From Octopus vulgaris (Eukaryota): DNA of 64,000 bases. This document shows positions 36,100 to 64,000 of this stretch, piece by piece; the stretch's first letter is position 1, and every line of letters starts with the position of its first letter. The notes beneath the pieces are model-generated. The model saw nothing but the letters and a program-made list of their open reading frames with translations. It ran no database searches and was not told the DNA's origin. Position numbers and translations under genes: made by a program. The stretch is from NCBI GenBank assembly GCA_951406725.2, contig OX597814.1:34968001-35032000 (forward strand), in the 5' to 3' direction.

Positions 36100-37130
36100 A
36101 TACAAATGGCGACGCTTCCACCAAATTCTTGTAGACCTAAATTCAAAACATCAGCTCTGATTTCTTCAAATTCCTTAATGATTTCATACACTATGATTTG
36201 AGTTGCTTTTTGCATTTTAAGAATTTATGTGCTTCCAGGATGTTATTCATTTTCGAGTCTCTAGTTAGTAAAGGAAGATTTTGCACAATAGTGTTGTATG
36301 CCTCGTTGTTTCTAGGGTTGTGAGTTGATATATACAGTAGTGCTTTGACATGAGGAGTGGTGTTATGTTTTGTTGCCCTTGGCACGCTTAATTCCATCGT
36401 CTATAAGTGAGGGTGGATATTGTCTTTCAGCTAATGTTGTTCTGAGGTTTAGAAAACAAAAGTTCCGAGTAGTTCTGTCAGACACTACTGTGCAAACCCT
36501 TTTACCAAATTAAAAGGAATATTTATTTTGATGTCTTTCGGGTGCCATGAGCTAAAAAGGAAATATTGCTCTGAGTCCGTTGGTTTATCATAGTTGTCAG
36601 TTATAATTCGGTTGTTGACCTTTTTAATCATAATATACCAAAATGGGACCTGTTGTTTGCTATATTCCATTGTGAATTGAATGTTACTGTTTATATCATT
36701 TAGTGTTGATTTGAATACCAAACGTTTACCAATGATCTCCTTCCAAATGTTAAAACAGTCATCCTGGTATCTTTTCCAGTTTTCTCTTATATAACGGTGG
36801 AATGGATAACCGTATTTTTGCAATGACACTTCATATATGATGAATTCAAATAACCCATTATCACGTTCGCAAGACCAGGGGTTGCTTTCGTTCCCATCGC
36901 AATTCGACATTTTTGACGATAATAGGTGTCATCAAAGAAGAAGTAATTGATCTGAAGTACAAATTTTAAACATTCAATAATAAAGAACTGATTTATGCGT
37001 TCCGGAAGTAATTCGGGATACTTTTCCGACCAGAATTTGATTGCTTTTATTCCATAGTCATGTGGGATGTTGGTGTAAAAATTGATAACATCGAACAACG
37101 CTAACTGAAAGACATTATCCACCCTCACTT
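36100..37130 (-). pseudogene. Decayed PLE RT fragment
   Basis: FDVINFYTNIPH, RQKCRIAMGT, WKRYQDDCF, KPTDSEQY..SSWHP; frameshifted. Confidence 0.9.
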
Positions 37131-41433: not shown

Positions 41434-41627
41434 TACATATTCATACATGTGTATGTAAACAGATGCATGTAAATGCATATATACATATGCATACCTACCT
41501 ACATACAAACATATACGTATATATATATATATATATATATATACGTATACGTTTGTATGTAGGTAGGTATGCATATGTATATATGCATTTACATGCATCT
41601 GTTTACATACACATGTATGAACATGTA
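41434..41627. repeat. Near-perfect palindrome centred on (TA)n, abutting the PLE 5' end
   Basis: ~85-bp arms (tacatattcatacatgtgtatgtaaacagatgc... / ...gcatctgtttacatacacatgtatgaacatgta) with 2 visible mismatches. Confidence 0.95.
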
Positions 41628-42258
41628 CACCAACTAATACATACTAATACGTACTAATACATACTAGTACATACTAATACTTACACCAACCCTATACATA
41701 CACACGTCCAGACCCCGCATACGCACTTATACTCTCTCTCACACACACACACACACCTATACATACCAATACGTACTAATACATACTAATACATACTAAT
41801 ACATACACCAACCCCATACATACGCACGTCCAGACCAATCTTACGCACTAATACTCTCTCATACACACACACACACACACACACCCTTATACATACTAAT
41901 ACATACACCAACCCTATACATACACACATCCAGACCCCTCCCACGCACTTTTAGCTGGTCCCTCAACCCATTTATCAACCCTATTATCTCCCCTTATTTC
42001 GCTCTCGCGTCTCATGTTTGATCTTTGACCTCTGGCCGAAATCAGATCGCCATGTTGATTCGTTAGCTACTGCACGCATTTTTTTTCTCTCCTTCTTTCT
42101 GTGTTTTTCTCTCTCTGTGTATCTTTCTGTTGAAGAGCGTAGGCTCGAAACGTTAAAGACTTGTTTTATTTATATTTCCTGAGCGCCATACAATTGTTCG
42201 TTTGTTTTCCACCTGCCTTCGTCTTTTGTTTATTTTCATAAAGCTTCCCGTTATATAT
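41627..42258 (+). repeat. 5' pseudo-LTR of the PLE
   Basis: Direct repeat of 46204-46837; differences seen are microsatellite length and a 7-bp indel (gccatacaattg vs gccatactaatacaattg). Confidence 0.95.
42122..42159 (+). ncRNA. Minimal hammerhead-ribozyme-like motif (variant core) in 5' pLTR
   Basis: tcttt CTGTTGA a gagc-gtag-gctc GAA acgtt aaaga: helix I tcttt/aaaga, helix II gagc/gctc, palindromic helix III; A6 replaced by U. Confidence 0.65.
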
Positions 42259-42921
42259 TATGCGCTCACGTGGTCTCACTTTCATCCTATATTCTACCAA
42301 TACCACTATCAACACTTACCTCTACCTTGGATTTTCTTTACCTCTTGGATACTTACCATTGGCTGCACCTCTCTTTCGCGGATCAAAGTGACTTTGCATT
42401 GATGTGAAATCCTTAAAAAATATACCACGACGTCTACACATTTCTCACCTTGAACTTTCAACCTTGAACTTGTTCGCATAAACTGTCCCGTTTGTTGTAT
42501 TTTTATTTCTTCTTATATTACCACATTTTTACATTCATTTCATGCTTCCCACATTTTCCTGAATTTTTGTTCTCCTTTCCGTCTTTCTTCCCTCTCTGGA
42601 TGTCCATACTCCGTTTCCTCTGCCTGCACCCCCTTTTTTTGCCTCCCCCTCTCTCTGCTTCCCTTCTTTCTTTCCCTTTTTCGTTTGCCCCGTCTTTTCT
42701 GCCCCTATCGCTTACTTATCTAGTTTTTTCATACGATTATTATTTTTTTATTATTTTTTTGTTTTTTTATTATTTTTTTTATTATTTTTTTGTTTTTTTG
42801 AACGTTTGTTTTTTCCCCGTTTTTCGCTATCCTTTTTTTCTATTTTTTTCATACGATAATTTTTGTTTTTTGTTTTTTTTTGTTTTTTCGAACGTTTTTT
42901 TTTTTTTTCCGCTATCCCATC

Positions 42922-45900
42922 ATGCCGGATCCTAGGTCCTACCTTCTCACCCTCCATCACCGTTTGAAGGATCATCTACGTTCGCTTCCTGTATATTGCC
43001 TTCAGCCGTCCGTTAATCTCTCTCTACTTCTTTTTAAAAAAACCCGCTTCTCTAGCCATGTCTCTTTCCTAAGCCGCTGCCTACATCACCGACTCATCCC
43101 TAAAGGTTTCCGCCTCCACTTCCACCCTGCTCTCCACTCGGATTCTTCCATCTTACCCATACTCCGCACCACATCTTACCGCCTTATGCGGGCCACCATT
43201 CGCTCCAATCTCTCCAAACTACATGCCATCAACCGCCTTCTTCCTCCTGCTTTCTCCACCATCTTCTCCTCTCTGCCGCCTCTCTATGCTCCAAACACGC
43301 TACGCTTCATTATCCATTTGAATCAACTCTTCCATCAATTTCTTTCTGATACCAAACTTCGTAAACTCCAATCACTCTTCCATTCCACCCTACCCGACGC
43401 CACTACCCCAACTCCTCCACCACCCTTCTCCCCTCCCGATAGGCTCCATCCACCCACACCTAACCCCACTGCCCCTCCCTACAACCCCTTCTCCCCTCCC
43501 GTTAGGCTCCATCCACCTACACCTAACCCTACTGCCCCGCCTAACCACCCCCCACACACCTCTCCAATCCCTCCCCCTCAGACCTCCCCGAGACCTACCA
43601 CCCCTCCTACTTCTATTCCATCCACCCCTTCTCCACTTCCGTCTGTTGTTACCATTCCCCCCGATCTTCCCCTCTCTGCGGCTGAACGCTCCGTCCTTGG
43701 TAGGGGTCTGCGTTTCATCCCCCTCACTCCATCCTGTAAGGAATTCCAGACGCGAGTTGATGTCCACAGCTTTGTGCGCCGTGTCCGGTTGGGTGCGCAT
43801 TACCACGACTCGCCACCCACACCCAACGAAGAGGACGACTGCTTCACTGGCCTGGGCCGCCGACCATCCCCGTGGACGCCTGCCCCTGGCCAGATCCTAG
43901 CAGTGGATCTTTTCGCGGGCGCTTGTCAGCGTGCATTGGAGCGGTTCAACTTCTCCAGGCGCCAACGCCGCCTCAACATCTCCCCGGCTGAGCTCTTGGC
44001 TCTTCGTTCCCTCCAACGGCGCGCTGACATTATCATCAAACCGGCTGACAAGGGTGGAGCTGTAGTGGTGTGGCGCGCGGACCTCTATAGGGCCGAGGCT
44101 TTCCGCCAACTCAATGACACCTCCTTCTATTCCCCTCTGCCCTCTAACCCCACACGTAGCTACCAACAGACGGTATCCTCTACTGTCCAAGACCTCATCT
44201 CGTCCTCCCGTCTCTCCCGCACCGCATCCAACCTAATTGTGCGAACCCCACGTACCCCCACCATTTACTTCCTCCCCAAAATCCACAAACCCAACAACCC
44301 TGGCCGCCCCATCGTCTCCGCCTGTAACTGCCCCACGGAGCTCATCTCTAAATACCTCGACCGTGTCCTTGCCCCCCTAGTGGCATCTCTTCCCTCCCAC
44401 ATCCACGATACCAACCATGCTCTCCGGCTTTTCAACTCTTTCTCCTTTCCTCCCGGCTCCTCCAAAATCCTTTTTACTATGGACATCCAAAGCCTCTATA
44501 CTGTTATCCCTCACCACGAAGGACTGCAGGCCCTTCGACACTTTCTTGACCTCCGCTCTAACCCTGTACCTGACACCTCCACACTCATTCGTCTGGCCGA
44601 ACTTGTCCTTACTCTGAACTGCTTCTCGTTCGCGGGCGAGTTCTACCATCAGGTCTCGGGAGTGGCCATGGGAACGCGAATGGGCCCCAACTATGCGAAC
44701 CTGTTCGTTGGCTATGTTGAGGCCCAAATATTCTCTAATTTCACTGGTCCCACTCCTGAACTATATGGTCGTTATATTGACGACATTATCGGTGCCACCT
44801 CACTCTCCCGCGAACATCTAGATTCCTTCCTCTCTTTCGTCCAATCTTTCCATCCAGCCCTCCACTTCACTTCCACTATCTCCAACACCTCTGTCTCCTT
44901 CCTCGATATTTCGGTTAGCATTCTTCACTCTACTCTTACCACCTCCATTCACTACAAACACACAGACTCACACTCATACCTCAACTTCTCTTCCTCCCAC
45001 CCAGAACACACCAAGCTTTCCATCCCCTATTCCCAATTCCTCCGTCTACGTAGGCTCTGTAGTGACGACCATGACTTTGAGACTCAGTCTCAACGTATGG
45101 CTCACCACTTCACCCTACGTGGATACCCCCTCACCACTATCCACACCGCCCTTGCCAGAGCACGGTCCGTGGACCGTGTATCTGCTCTCTCTCCCCGAAC
45201 CCGCCCTGTAGTCTCCCGCCTCCCTTTTCCCCTCACTTACCACCCCACGACCCTACGTCTCCAACGCACCATTCTTCGAGCTTTCCGTCATCTCCAGTCC
45301 GACCCGTCCACTTCACACCTCTTCCCTAACCGACCCCTCCCCTCTTTCAAACGAGCCCACAACCTTCGAGACCTTTTGGTCCATAGCTCCTTCCCTGACC
45401 CTACCTCCCAACCCGGCTCGTTCCCCTGCTCCCGCCCACGTTGCCGCACTTGCCCTTACCTCTCCAACACCACCCGCCTCACTAGCACGCACCATCGACC
45501 CTATCCCATCATCCACTCCTTCACCTGCACCTCCAGCAATATTATCTATTGCATCTCTTGCTCTCTCTGCAATTCCTTGTACATCGGACAAACGGGACGC
45601 CGCTTGGCTGACCGGTTCGCGGAACACCTTCGTGACATCCACCTTGCGAACGACACACCGGTCTCACGCCATTTCCGCTCCACCGGTCACTCCTTGCAAC
45701 ACCTATCTGTGTTCGGTTTGTCCTTACACAGAGGCCATCCGGATTCCCGTTTGCGTCGTGAACAGGAATTAATCTTCTCTCTTCGCTCTTATACGCCATT
45801 TGGTCTCAACTCTCCCCCCTCCTCATCTAACCCCCTCTCCCCCTCCTCACCTATCCTTTCTCCCCCGACCCCTACTTCTTCAGTCCTTCATCCTTTCACC

Positions 45901-46161
45901 CCTACTCCCCTTCCCTTCTTCCCTCTTTCTCCCTCCCTCTTCCCCTTCCCTCTGCTCCCTCACTCCCTCTCTCCCCTTCTCTCTCCCCCTCTCCCTCTTT
46001 CCTCCTTCATCCCCCTCATCCCCTTCCTTCTCCCCATCCTCTCCTCTCCCCCTTCTCCTCCCCCTCTTCTTCCCCTCCCCTTCTCTCCCCCTCTTCTCCC
46101 CCTCCCCTCTTCTCCCCCTCCCCACTCTTCTCCCCCCTCTTCTCCTCACTACACCACATGA
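42922..46161 (+). CDS. PLE polyprotein: reverse transcriptase, Cys-rich linker and GIY-YIG endonuclease (1079 aa from first ATG)
   Basis: Uninterrupted frame; IIKPADKG, LPKIHK..PGRPIVS, MDIQSLYT, GVAMGTRMGPNYANL, RYIDD, SFLDI; linker CSRPRCRTC; IIYCISC..YIGQT.R.LADRFAEH; EQELI..FGLN. Confidence 0.95.
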   Translation: MPDPRSYLLTLHHRLKDHLRSLPVYCLQPSVNLSLLLFKKTRFSSHVSFLSRCLHHRLIPKGFRLHFHPALHSDSSILPILRTTSYRLMRATIRSNLSKLHAINRLLPPAFSTIFSSLPPLYAPNTLRFIIHLNQLFHQFLSDTKLRKLQSLFHSTLPDATTPTPPPPFSPPDRLHPPTPNPTAPPYNPFSPPVRLHPPTPNPTAPPNHPPHTSPIPPPQTSPRPTTPPTSIPSTPSPLPSVVTIPPDLPLSAAERSVLGRGLRFIPLTPSCKEFQTRVDVHSFVRRVRLGAHYHDSPPTPNEEDDCFTGLGRRPSPWTPAPGQILAVDLFAGACQRALERFNFSRRQRRLNISPAELLALRSLQRRADIIIKPADKGGAVVVWRADLYRAEAFRQLNDTSFYSPLPSNPTRSYQQTVSSTVQDLISSSRLSRTASNLIVRTPRTPTIYFLPKIHKPNNPGRPIVSACNCPTELISKYLDRVLAPLVASLPSHIHDTNHALRLFNSFSFPPGSSKILFTMDIQSLYTVIPHHEGLQALRHFLDLRSNPVPDTSTLIRLAELVLTLNCFSFAGEFYHQVSGVAMGTRMGPNYANLFVGYVEAQIFSNFTGPTPELYGRYIDDIIGATSLSREHLDSFLSFVQSFHPALHFTSTISNTSVSFLDISVSILHSTLTTSIHYKHTDSHSYLNFSSSHPEHTKLSIPYSQFLRLRRLCSDDHDFETQSQRMAHHFTLRGYPLTTIHTALARARSVDRVSALSPRTRPVVSRLPFPLTYHPTTLRLQRTILRAFRHLQSDPSTSHLFPNRPLPSFKRAHNLRDLLVHSSFPDPTSQPGSFPCSRPRCRTCPYLSNTTRLTSTHHRPYPIIHSFTCTSSNIIYCISCSLCNSLYIGQTGRRLADRFAEHLRDIHLANDTPVSRHFRSTGHSLQHLSVFGLSLHRGHPDSRLRREQELIFSLRSYTPFGLNSPPSSSNPLSPSSPILSPPTPTSSVLHPFTPTPLPFFPLSPSLFPFPLLPHSLSPLLSPPLPLSSFIPLIPFLLPILSSPPSPPPLLPLPFSPPLLPLPSSPPPHSSPPSSPHYTT

Positions 46162-46203: not shown

Positions 46204-46829
46204 ACACCAACTAATACATACTAATACGTACTAATACATACTAGTACATACTAATACTTACACCAACCCTATACATACACACGTCCAGACCCCGCATACG
46301 CACTTATACTCTCTCACACACACACACACACCTATACATACCAATACGTACTAATACATACTAATACATACTAATACATACACCAACCCCATACATACGC
46401 ACGTCCAGACCAATCTTACGCACTAATACTCTCTCATACACACACACACACACACACACCCTTATACATACTAATACATACACCAACCCTATACATACAC
46501 ACATCCAGACCCCTCCCACGCACTTTTAGCTGGTCCCTCAACCCATTTATCAACCCTATTATCTCCCCTTATTTCGCTCTCGCGTCTCATGTTTGATCTT
46601 TGACCTCTGGCCGAAATCAGATCGCCATGTTGATTCGTTAGCTACTGCACGCATTTTTTTTCTCTCCTTCTTTCTGTGTTTTTCTCTCTGTGTATCTTTC
46701 TGTTGAAGAGCGTAGGCTCGAAACGTTAAAGACTTGTTTTATTTATATTTCCTGAGCGCCATACTAATACAATTGTTCGTTTGTTTTCCACCTGCCTTCG
46801 TCTTTTGTTTATTTTCATAAAGCTTCCCG

Positions 46830-46837
<8 letters not shown>
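46204..46837 (+). repeat. 3' pseudo-LTR of the PLE
   Basis: Direct repeat of 41627-42258; contains atactaatac decamer repeats and three copies of a ~100-125-bp unit. Confidence 0.95.
46695..46732 (+). ncRNA. Minimal hammerhead-ribozyme-like motif in 3' pLTR
   Basis: Identical to 42122-42159. Confidence 0.65.
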
Positions 46838-46875
<38 letters not shown>

Positions 46876-50926: not shown

Positions 50927-50972
50927 AACACAACGTTTCGGCTGATATACCCTTCAGCCTTCATCAGGTGTC
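50927..50972 (-). ncRNA. Type I minimal hammerhead ribozyme, canonical core
   Basis: Minus strand: GACAC CUGAUGA A GGCUGA-agggUAUA-UCAGCC GAA ACGUU GUGUU; helix I GACAC/GUGUU, 6-bp helix II. Confidence 0.8.
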
Positions 50973-51844: not shown

Positions 51845-51960
51845 TGTAGGTGTTTTCTTTTCCTTCTTTGGACTTTTCGCTTTCTCCTTTCCGGTGAAGA
51901 GCTTTGCTTGAAACGTCAAACACTCCCTCCTTTTACCGAGCGACCAACTAATACATTCCC
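51845..51960 (+). mobile_element. Solo pLTR remnant related to the main PLE, with decayed hammerhead
   Basis: gtgaagagctttgcttgaaacgtcaaa...gagcgaccaactaataca parallels ttgaagagcgtaggctcgaaacgttaaa...gagcgccatactaataca. Confidence 0.6.
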
Positions 51961-52096: not shown

Positions 52097-53749
<1,653 letters not shown>

Positions 53750-63291: not shown

Positions 63292-64000
63292 AACAGGCTG
63301 CCGACTGGTTGACTAGTTTGCAGAGCAACTCAGAGACATCCAACTTGGCAACGGGTTGCCACCCTCTCAACATCTTCGCTCCACTGATCATCCTATCCAT
63401 ACCTCCTAAATTCTTTAAACTTTTTCTCCCATCACATTCAATCAATATACACTATGCCCTTTGCCTCTATCTCGCATTTTTCACGCCTCTCCAATGCATC
63501 CCATTCACACTAACATTTTCCTCGCATGACCCTCATATCAACCCGCATTTCCTCAACACACTAACACGGTTTTCAAATAAACACACCTCATAACTCACCC
63601 CTCTGCCACACCTGCACAACTTCTAATCTTTTCTACCATCTCGTCTCCTTGGCAGACCCGCATACACAAGCAGATTCACACACACGTACACATATCGACA
63701 TATTCACATATGCACACCCTCAAATATCCATTCTCCTCACGTATACATACACGCGCGGGCCCACACATCACAATTCACTCACCATTTTGTTTCCCAATTA
63801 TTTTTGTTTTCGTTTTTTCCACCCGTACAAACACTCACATGTTTTCTCACTCATTTATAGTATTGTTTCTTAACCCGCCATTCCCACTTTGTATGAAAAC
63901 TCGCCTACACACTTTCCTTACCACCAACTCTTTAGCTCCCCATCATATATAGGCACACCCACAAGCACATACATACTCACACGCACGCACCTACACTTTC
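63292..64000 (+). pseudogene. Older 5'-truncated relative of the main PLE (GIY-YIG end plus C-rich tail)
   Basis: TGCRLVD*FAEQLRDIQLGNGLPPSQHLRSTDH aligns with TGRRLADRFAEHLRDIHLANDTPVSRHFRSTGH. Confidence 0.8.

What the first reader, a model, noticed from the sequence alone, without database searches (positions are those of the whole stretch)
42122..42159. Variant-core hammerhead (CUGUUGA) in both pLTRs
Seen: hammerhead architecture with palindromic AACGUU helix III but U at conserved A6, identical in both repeats 4573 nt apart. Known: PLE pLTRs carry minimal hammerheads proposed to cleave as dimers. Inference: paired cleavage would release a ~4.6-kb unit-length, possibly circular RNA containing the whole ORF; the variant may be attenuated or inactive.
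Basis: partly seen in the sequence, partly recalled or inferred. Interest (0 to 1): 0.7.

Follow-up and report, generated by a model that had tools for sequence, protein, structure and literature searches.

The report
Retrotransposon hammerhead with fixed U6 core
A young Penelope-like retrotransposon carries in both terminal repeats a minimal hammerhead ribozyme motif with U instead of the near-universal A at core position 6; essentially all related copies laid from four public sequencing runs share the change, so it is likely a slowed but still working self-cleaving RNA that searches demanding the standard core would miss.

Summary
An identical 38-nt minimal type I hammerhead motif (42122-42159, 46695-46732; 4573 nt apart) sits in both pLTRs of an intact, recent Neptune-like Penelope element. 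Its extra A, ACGU palindrome and GUU triplet are normal for these elements; only U at position 6 departs. New here: U6 is not this copy's decay. In contigs of four runs (four organism labels) no other letter reaches 3% at position 6, while neighbouring N7, the free position, varies (A 9-46%, G 6-9%), and many elements with other flanks share the motif. Related elements of other animals keep A6 (0 U6 in 25-28 motifs). Most likely a lineage-fixed, slow, dimer- or protein-assisted ribozyme (0.55); cleavage is untested, and position-6 mutants are weak in vitro. The 4.6-kb circle is the published model, not shown here; insertions end about 103-110 nt past the cut, so a linear cut-to-cut RNA cannot be the direct template. 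I found no report of a natural A6U core in the searchable papers, but two key papers were not held. New variant of a known kind; interest 0.5.

The parts
42122..42159 (+). 5' minimal type I hammerhead motif, U6 core (CUGUUGA), extra A after A9, 4-bp stem II, 5-bp stem I, ACGU palindrome, GUU triplet; predicted cut between 42154 and 42155
46695..46732 (+). 3' hammerhead motif, identical; predicted cut between 46727 and 46728
42130..42130 (+). core position 6, U instead of A; no other letter at 3% or more in 4 of 4 runs
   Evidence: table 3
42131..42131 (+). core position N7, the free position; U>A 9-46%, U>G 6-9% of summed contig depth in 4 of 4 runs
46703..46703 (+). core position 6 of the 3' copy, U
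41627..42258 (+). 5' pseudo-LTR (partial tandem copy)
   Evidence: no substitutions against the 3' pLTR over 628 aligned columns, three indels of 2, 2 and 6 nt
46204..46837 (+). 3' pseudo-LTR; its last 7-8 nt (TATATAT) cannot be told from the (TA)n target
42922..46161 (+). single intact ORF, 1079 aa from the ATG: RT, Cys linker, C-terminal GIY-YIG endonuclease, low-complexity tail
44281..44850 (+). reverse transcriptase core (Pfam RVT_1, E 1.4e-7; YIDD at 44773-44784)
45427..45453 (+). C-x4-C-x2-C linker typical of Neptune and Nematis clades
   Evidence: motif definition from PMC8557442 passages
45541..45810 (+). GIY-YIG endonuclease with inner CxxC and two His (Pfam GIY-YIG E 0.0069, below its curated cut-off)
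46831..46870 (.). (TA)n microsatellite at the 3' junction (target)
   Evidence: six X5 contigs also run into (AT)n at the matching place, table 7
41434..41627 (.). 96-nt inverted duplication of flanking DNA centred on (TA)n at the 5' junction (94 of 96 identical)

Best explanation
This is a minimal type I hammerhead motif in both pseudo-LTRs of an intact, recent Neptune-like Penelope retrotransposon, with an A6-to-U change shared across its lineage, and it likely still cleaves, slowly and only as a dimer or with protein help. Shown: the anatomy, the intact ORF, the identity of the two copies, and that position 6 is fixed as U while N7 varies across related copies. Inferred: a read-through transcript holds both motifs; each monomer folds stems I and II but has no helix III (and U4-G5-U6-U7 is predicted to pair with A14-A15.1-C-G, an inactive fold); two motifs pair through ACGU to make helix III; G8 and G12, both kept, would cut after GUU; U6 would weaken the U-turn and lower the rate. 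A slow ribozyme suits the element, because reverse transcription starts about 103-110 nt downstream of the 3' motif and has to read through it intact, either on uncut RNA or on a religated 4573-nt circle.
For: Both core-strand changes falling on N7 has a rough chance of 1 in 49. Summed depth at the motif is 7, 37, 49 and 60 times that at pLTR position 41970, and loose ends pile up at 42122-42123 and 42159-42162, the ends of stem I (X7: 204 and 339 contigs), so elements with other flanks keep this island. The ORF is intact and the pLTRs have no substitutions, so the element moved recently with U6. Same layout as A6 motifs beside the closest relatives; L009 (51-57% protein identity) carries the motif printed for Acropora Neptune in PMC4209133 Fig. 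S3. A natural position-6 variant can stay active: A6C of phage Bcep176, kobs under 0.1/min (PMC3088659 section 8), 0.3/min in Mn2+ (PMC7151607). A PLE hammerhead cleaves only when its own protein is added (PMC11167929).
Against: No cleavage data. In a deep mutational scan all single and double mutants of the CUGA region other than the C3-G8 swap had low activity (PMC9901934 passage; the A6U value itself is in a figure I could not see). Minimal PLE hammerheads are already very weak with A6, so U6 may push the rate to nil. Position 6 is A in 56 of 56 representatives of PMC4209133 Fig. S3 (their descriptor demanded it), in 24 of 25 motifs found with position 6 free in 80 related loci and U6 is at background level in phage contigs (30 pattern matches against about 2100 estimated for A6; full architecture in 2 of 30 against 123 of 135). 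In one search depths are sums over overlapping contigs, not copy numbers; the flanks are T- and C-rich simple sequence that slips easily, so the sharp borders may overstate divergence; changes in the middle of a short island are harder to lay; a few master lineages could account for the whole pattern; and the four organism labels hold the ORF at 0.83-0.87 of its words, so they are close kin and not independent origins. Hammerhead-dead PLE RNA inserted normally in vitro, and Naiad elements spread without canonical hammerheads.
Confidence: 0.55

Rival explanations
1. The motif no longer cleaves but is kept as a folded signal: a docking site for the element's protein that sets where reverse transcription starts, or a part of the pLTR promoter or 3'-end signal. 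U6 would be the switch that removed cleavage.
For: Position-6 mutants are weak; cleavage is dispensable for insertion in vitro and the PLE protein affects folding of its hammerhead; the template must be intact through the 3' motif; U6 adds a 4-bp inactive pairing in the monomer, -10.2 against -7.8 kcal/mol for stems I and II alone, where the canonical control gains only 0.6.
Against: The kept and free positions follow the catalytic core exactly (N7 free, G8, G12, A13, A14, A15.1-U16.1 and an H17 kept), which a mere binding site need not do; N7 changes to A or G remove one pair of the inactive fold.
Confidence: 0.25
2. Neutral vestige: U6 killed the ribozyme in a founder element, and the lineage expanded too recently for the motif to decay.
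For: The ORF is nearly identical across runs; hammerheads are not needed for spread in Naiads; depth figures cannot date the expansion; a decayed relative at 51885-51923 has G at position 6, most simply from A, so the change may be young.
Against: Flanks differ among elements that keep the 38-nt island, and the only core change seen, twice, is at N7.
Confidence: 0.14
3. The U6 motif is only a substrate half, cut in trans by an A6 motif with the same palindrome elsewhere in the genome.
For: The window holds an A6 motif with the same AACGUU and GUU at 50927-50972 on the minus strand; in a double hammerhead one copy's core cuts the other's site (established model).
Against: That motif has a different stem I (GACAC/GUGUU), so it cannot pair with AAAGA; A6 forms of this stem II stay under 3%; a substrate-only half would not need to keep C3, G5, G8 and A9.
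Confidence: 0.06

Closest known systems
Minimal type I hammerheads of metazoan Penelope-like elements (Cervera and De la Pena 2014, PMC4209133; main text parts 1-2 of 4 and supplement parts 1-2 of 3 read)
   Same: One motif per pLTR, short stem I, extra base between 9 and 10.1, G10.1-C11.1, palindromic 15.2-16.2 without loop 3, frequent GUU triplet, proposed dimer cleavage and circle.
   Different: U at position 6; all 56 representatives in Fig. S3 have A6, and the only core change named in the text is U3-A8.
Neptune hammerhead of Acropora (Fig. S3 and Table S1 of PMC4209133; same motif in loci L009, L010, L048)
   Same: Same lengths of stem II and loop, same GCUC 3' strand and GAAACGU; neighbouring ORFs 51-57% identical to this one.
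   Different: A6, GUC triplet, different stem I pairs.
A6C natural variant of phage Bcep176 (PMC3088659 section 8; PMC7151607 parts 1-2 of 4)
   Same: Natural change at core position 6 with the rest of the core kept; low Mg2+ activity.
   Different: C rather than U; a single phage sequence rather than a whole retrotransposon lineage; Mn2+ preference shown there, untested here.
Poseidon element of Anolis carolinensis, PAc (PMC11167929, parts 1-2 of 4)
   Same: PLE with pLTR hammerhead upstream of the point where reverse transcription starts.
   Different: Poseidon clade, canonical core, hammerhead overlaps the ORF start; here it lies 767 nt upstream of the ATG.

Membership tests
Hammerhead ribozyme (type I, minimal) | Three-way junction with stems I and II around the core | tested here: met
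   5-bp stem I and 4-bp stem II, pair probabilities 0.62-1.0 in the 38-mer, lower (0.15-0.6) in 220-nt context; model hit 31.4 bits
Hammerhead ribozyme (type I, minimal) | C3-G8, U4, G5, A9, G12, A13, A14, A15.1-U16.1, H17 | tested here: met
   all present; none varies at 3% or more in 4 runs
Hammerhead ribozyme (type I, minimal) | A at position 6 | tested here: not met
   U in both copies and in related copies
Hammerhead ribozyme (type I, minimal) | Palindrome allowing an intermolecular helix III | tested here: met
   ACGU gives 4 Watson-Crick pairs; duplex of AACGUU only -3.5 kcal/mol, same as the canonical control
Hammerhead ribozyme (type I, minimal) | Compensatory changes in the stems across relatives | tested here: inconclusive
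   8 of 9 pairs with two-sided changes, 83.8% paired, 0 of 500 shuffles, but the 10 relatives were picked by a descriptor that demands stems and all have A6; no two-sided change was seen within the U6 lineage
Hammerhead ribozyme (type I, minimal) | Site-specific self-cleavage | not testable with these tools
   only contigs were available, which cannot show RNA ends
Penelope-like element, EN+ | Single ORF with RT and C-terminal GIY-YIG endonuclease between pLTRs | tested here: met
Penelope-like element, EN+ | DKG motif and CCHH motif in the endonuclease | tested here: met
   DKGG at 44047; IIYCISCSLC, then EH and RHF in the translation; definitions from PMC8557442 passages
Neptune clade | CX2-5CxxC linker between RT and endonuclease | tested here: met
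   CSRPRCRTC at 45427-45453; shared with Nematis
Neptune clade | Placement in an RT tree with named Neptune, Nematis and Poseidon references | not tested
   no named references on hand; indirect link only, through close relatives that carry the published Acropora Neptune motif
Naiad/Chlamys clade | N-terminal endonuclease, DKA motif, no canonical hammerhead | tested here: not met
   endonuclease is C-terminal and the motif is DKG

The most novel reading that the evidence does not exclude
A large animal retrotransposon lineage has fixed a new hammerhead core, CUGUNGA, under selection for gated catalysis: near-silent in Mg2+ alone and switched on by dimer formation, the element's own protein or another metal, so that the 4573-nt unit is cut out and circularised only inside the retrotransposition particle. 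It would be the first position-6 variant held in many copies, and a whole class of such motifs would be invisible to CUGA-anchored surveys.
Probability: 0.25. Interest if true: 0.72.

Novelty: new variant of a known kind. Interest (0 to 1): 0.5.

Why it matters
Position 6 is among the most conserved bases of the hammerhead core; the one natural change I found described (A6C) is a single phage sequence that shifts metal preference. A U6 core fixed across a recently active retrotransposon lineage gives a natural, many-copy test of how much catalysis a PLE needs, which is an open question (role in circle formation versus passenger). It also shows a blind spot: surveys whose descriptors demand CUGANGA would score this lineage as lacking hammerheads. 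If the motif proves dead, it is still a clean case of a ribozyme fold kept without cleavage.

Tried and rejected
Sequencing or assembly error: rejected (identical in both pLTRs and in contigs of other runs). Private decay of this copy: rejected. Other register, reading UUGAAGA as a U3 core: rejected by inspection, since stems I and II would not pair and U3 would face G8. Motif on the minus strand: no hit there. Rfam: no hammerhead hit, also not for the canonical control. No whole genome is held for this window, so copies could not be counted or aligned directly. U6 relatives in public contigs: 0 in viral contigs with the family pattern, 0 and then 3 in prokaryotic genomes, the 3 lacking the ACGU-H strand; no PLE relatives in viral contigs (0 of 42 candidate stretches). 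No RNA holder listed: X1 is only guessed to be RNA and all runs are contigs, so nothing on expression, cut ends or circles. The first pair count had stem II columns misplaced and is replaced. Earlier notes of this scan: nothing returned. Using the pLTR differences to tell circle from linear template: uninformative, because the 6-nt indel looks like a loss private to the 5' copy (tables 4 and 7).

Full report
Observation. Window 42122-42159 reads TCTTT CTGTTGA A GAGC GTAG GCTC GAAA CG TT AAAGA and recurs unchanged at 46695-46732, 4573 nt away. In hammerhead numbering C3 is 42127, position 6 is 42130 (U), N7 42131, G12 42147, U16.1 42153 and H17 42154. A descriptor with positions 6 and 7 free found 3 hits in the window: these two and a canonical CUGAUGA motif at 50967 on the minus strand; 30 shuffled windows gave 0 palindromic-type hits and 1 hit of any type. 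A covariance model built from 10 A6 motifs of other animals' elements, without the window's sequence, ranks the two copies first at 31.4 bits. Rfam has no hit here, nor at the canonical control.

The element. The motifs lie in direct repeats 41627-42258 and 46204-46837 that differ by three small indels and no substitution. [quoted passage not shown] By the motifs given in PMC8557442 (passages) this is a canonical EN+ Penelope-like element of the Neptune type; I built no tree with named references. The best 120 of 364 protein relatives reach at most 57% identity. The 3' end runs into (TA)n and the 5' end follows a 96-nt inverted copy of flanking DNA. An intact frame and matching pLTRs mean a recent insertion that carried U6.

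What is ordinary. PMC4209133 (main text parts 1-2 of 4; supplement parts 1-2 of 3) describes exactly this layout: short stem I, an extra base between 9 and 10.1, a palindrome in place of helix III, many GUU triplets, weak dimer cleavage, and the proposal that cleavage and ligation give circles. With position 6 free and no stem I demand, 24 of 25 had A, 1 had C and looks like chance. The closest have the motif printed for Acropora Neptune. All 56 representatives in Fig. S3 have A6, though their descriptor required it.

What is new. I laid contigs of 4 of the 24 listed runs, one from each of organism labels A-D, on 41905-42700 at 80% likeness or more, listing differences from 3%. Position 6 shows no other letter in any run. 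The next base, N7, the one free position of the core strand, shows U>A at 18, 9, 29 and 46% and U>G at 9, 6, 6 and 7% of summed depth, from 112 and 107 contigs in the deepest run. I checked the coordinate register on three unambiguous rows (41970 A, 42138 C, 42163 G). Only two other changes are listed in the 38 nt: the outermost stem I base and a C>T that keeps a wobble pair in stem II. Depth at the motif is 7 to 60 times that at 41970 in the same pLTR, and loose ends gather at 42122-42123 and 42159-42162, the ends of stem I, so many elements with other flanks keep this island with U6. An A6 contig would have been laid at least as easily as an N7 variant, as the two positions are adjacent. Limits: depths are sums over overlapping contigs; the flanks are slippery simple sequence; changes in the middle of a short island are harder to lay; a few master lineages could give the whole pattern; and the four labels are close kin (0.83-0.87 of ORF words). 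The chance that both core-strand changes land on N7 is roughly 1 in 49, which is suggestive and no more.

How rare U6 is elsewhere. In phage contigs one stem II pattern gave about 2100 estimated stretches with A6 (127 loci from 4 of 64 parts) against 30 with U6 in the whole collection; full architecture was found in 123 of 135 A6 matches and 2 of 30 U6 matches, one of them convincing (L236, type III). In the papers, the natural position-6 change described is A6C in phage Bcep176: kobs under 0.1/min (PMC3088659, passages and section 8), and about 0.3/min in Mn2+ against 0.004-0.05 in Mg2+ (PMC7151607, parts 1-2 of 4). A deep mutational scan found low activity for all CUGA-region mutants but the C3-G8 swap (PMC9901934, passages; its supplement text had no per-mutant table). 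That A6 is the purine of a U-N-R turn whose N7 takes a hydrogen bond from U4 is recalled knowledge, not from a call. Searches for a natural A6U or CUGUNGA core showed none in the listings, of which one search listed 30 of 60 papers by title and abstract start only. Lunse et al. 2017 and Arkhipova et al. 2017 were not held and are known to me only through PMC6765202 and PMC8557442 passages; they or their supplements may list U6. Passages of PMC11014351, PMC6962438, PMC7229834 and bioRxiv 2024.05.16.594327, and part 1 of 5 of bioRxiv 2026.07.22.740005, had nothing on it.

Mechanism. Shown: anatomy, identity, fixation of U6. Predicted: the monomer forms stems I and II, and U4-G5-U6-U7 pairs with A14-A15.1-C-G, 2.4 kcal/mol below the open junction, against 0.6 for the canonical control; in 220-nt context the stems are only partly formed (0.15-0.6). 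Two motifs can make a 4-bp ACGU helix III. Cutting both would give a 4573-nt RNA with a 767-nt leader holding four upstream ATGs, the whole ORF and 566 nt of trailer. But this copy ends 103-110 nt past the 3' cut, depth falls in all four runs just beyond the matching place, and six X5 contigs run into (AT)n there. Reverse transcription thus starts downstream of the motif and reads through it intact. That excludes a linear cut-to-cut template and fits either a religated circle or uncut RNA. In the Anolis element, reverse transcription starts internally, the hammerhead cleaves only with the element's protein, dead mutants insert normally and no reads ended at the cut (PMC11167929, parts 1-2 of 4). 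A slow, assisted ribozyme is the reading that fits both the kept catalytic pattern and this geometry (0.55). A non-cleaving fold kept as a signal (0.25), a young vestige (0.14) and a substrate-only half (0.06) are the rivals.

Verdict. Real, correctly described, and a known kind of motif in a known place. The new point is a position-6 U that is fixed across a recently active lineage while the free position varies. Cleavage and circles are untested. New variant of a known kind; interest 0.5.

Noticed in passing
window 41434-41627: A 96-nt inverted duplication of host flank, centred on (TA)n and 94 of 96 identical, abuts the 5' pLTR; it looks like a fold-back copy of the target made during insertion.
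   Followed up: partly
window 50927-50972 and 52633-52670, minus strand: A canonical A6 minimal hammerhead with the same AACGUU and GUU, and a shorter relative of it with a changed cleavage strand; part of another repeat family.
   Followed up: partly
window 51885-51923, plus strand: Decayed relative of the same pLTR and motif (stem II GAGC, downstream GAGCG...CTAATACA block); its core has G at position 6, most simply from A, hinting that U6 arose after this branch.
   Followed up: partly
window 42128-42137 and 42151-42160: With U6 the core strand (TGTTGAAGAG) resembles the cleavage strand (CGTTAAAGAC), so it could pair with a stem I strand and A15.1-C15.2 as a substrate mimic; the change may have come from a local template switch.
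   Followed up: no
window 42179-42197: A downstream CCTGAGCG...ATACTAATACA block is kept in related elements with other flanks (loose ends) and repeats the AC-rich unit of the upstream pLTR; its GAGC could compete for the stem II 3' strand.
   Followed up: no
window 63293-64000 (plus) and 36509-37095 (minus): Two older Penelope-like fragments: an endonuclease piece 64% identical over 33 aa that runs off the window, and an RT piece about 30% identical.
   Followed up: no
L236:1-105, minus strand: A phage contig holds a full type III hammerhead architecture with a CUGUCGA core, a second natural U6 candidate.
   Followed up: no
window 45811-46161: The ORF continues 116 codons past the endonuclease as a Pro/Ser/Leu low-complexity tail read from C/T-rich repeats.
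   Followed up: no
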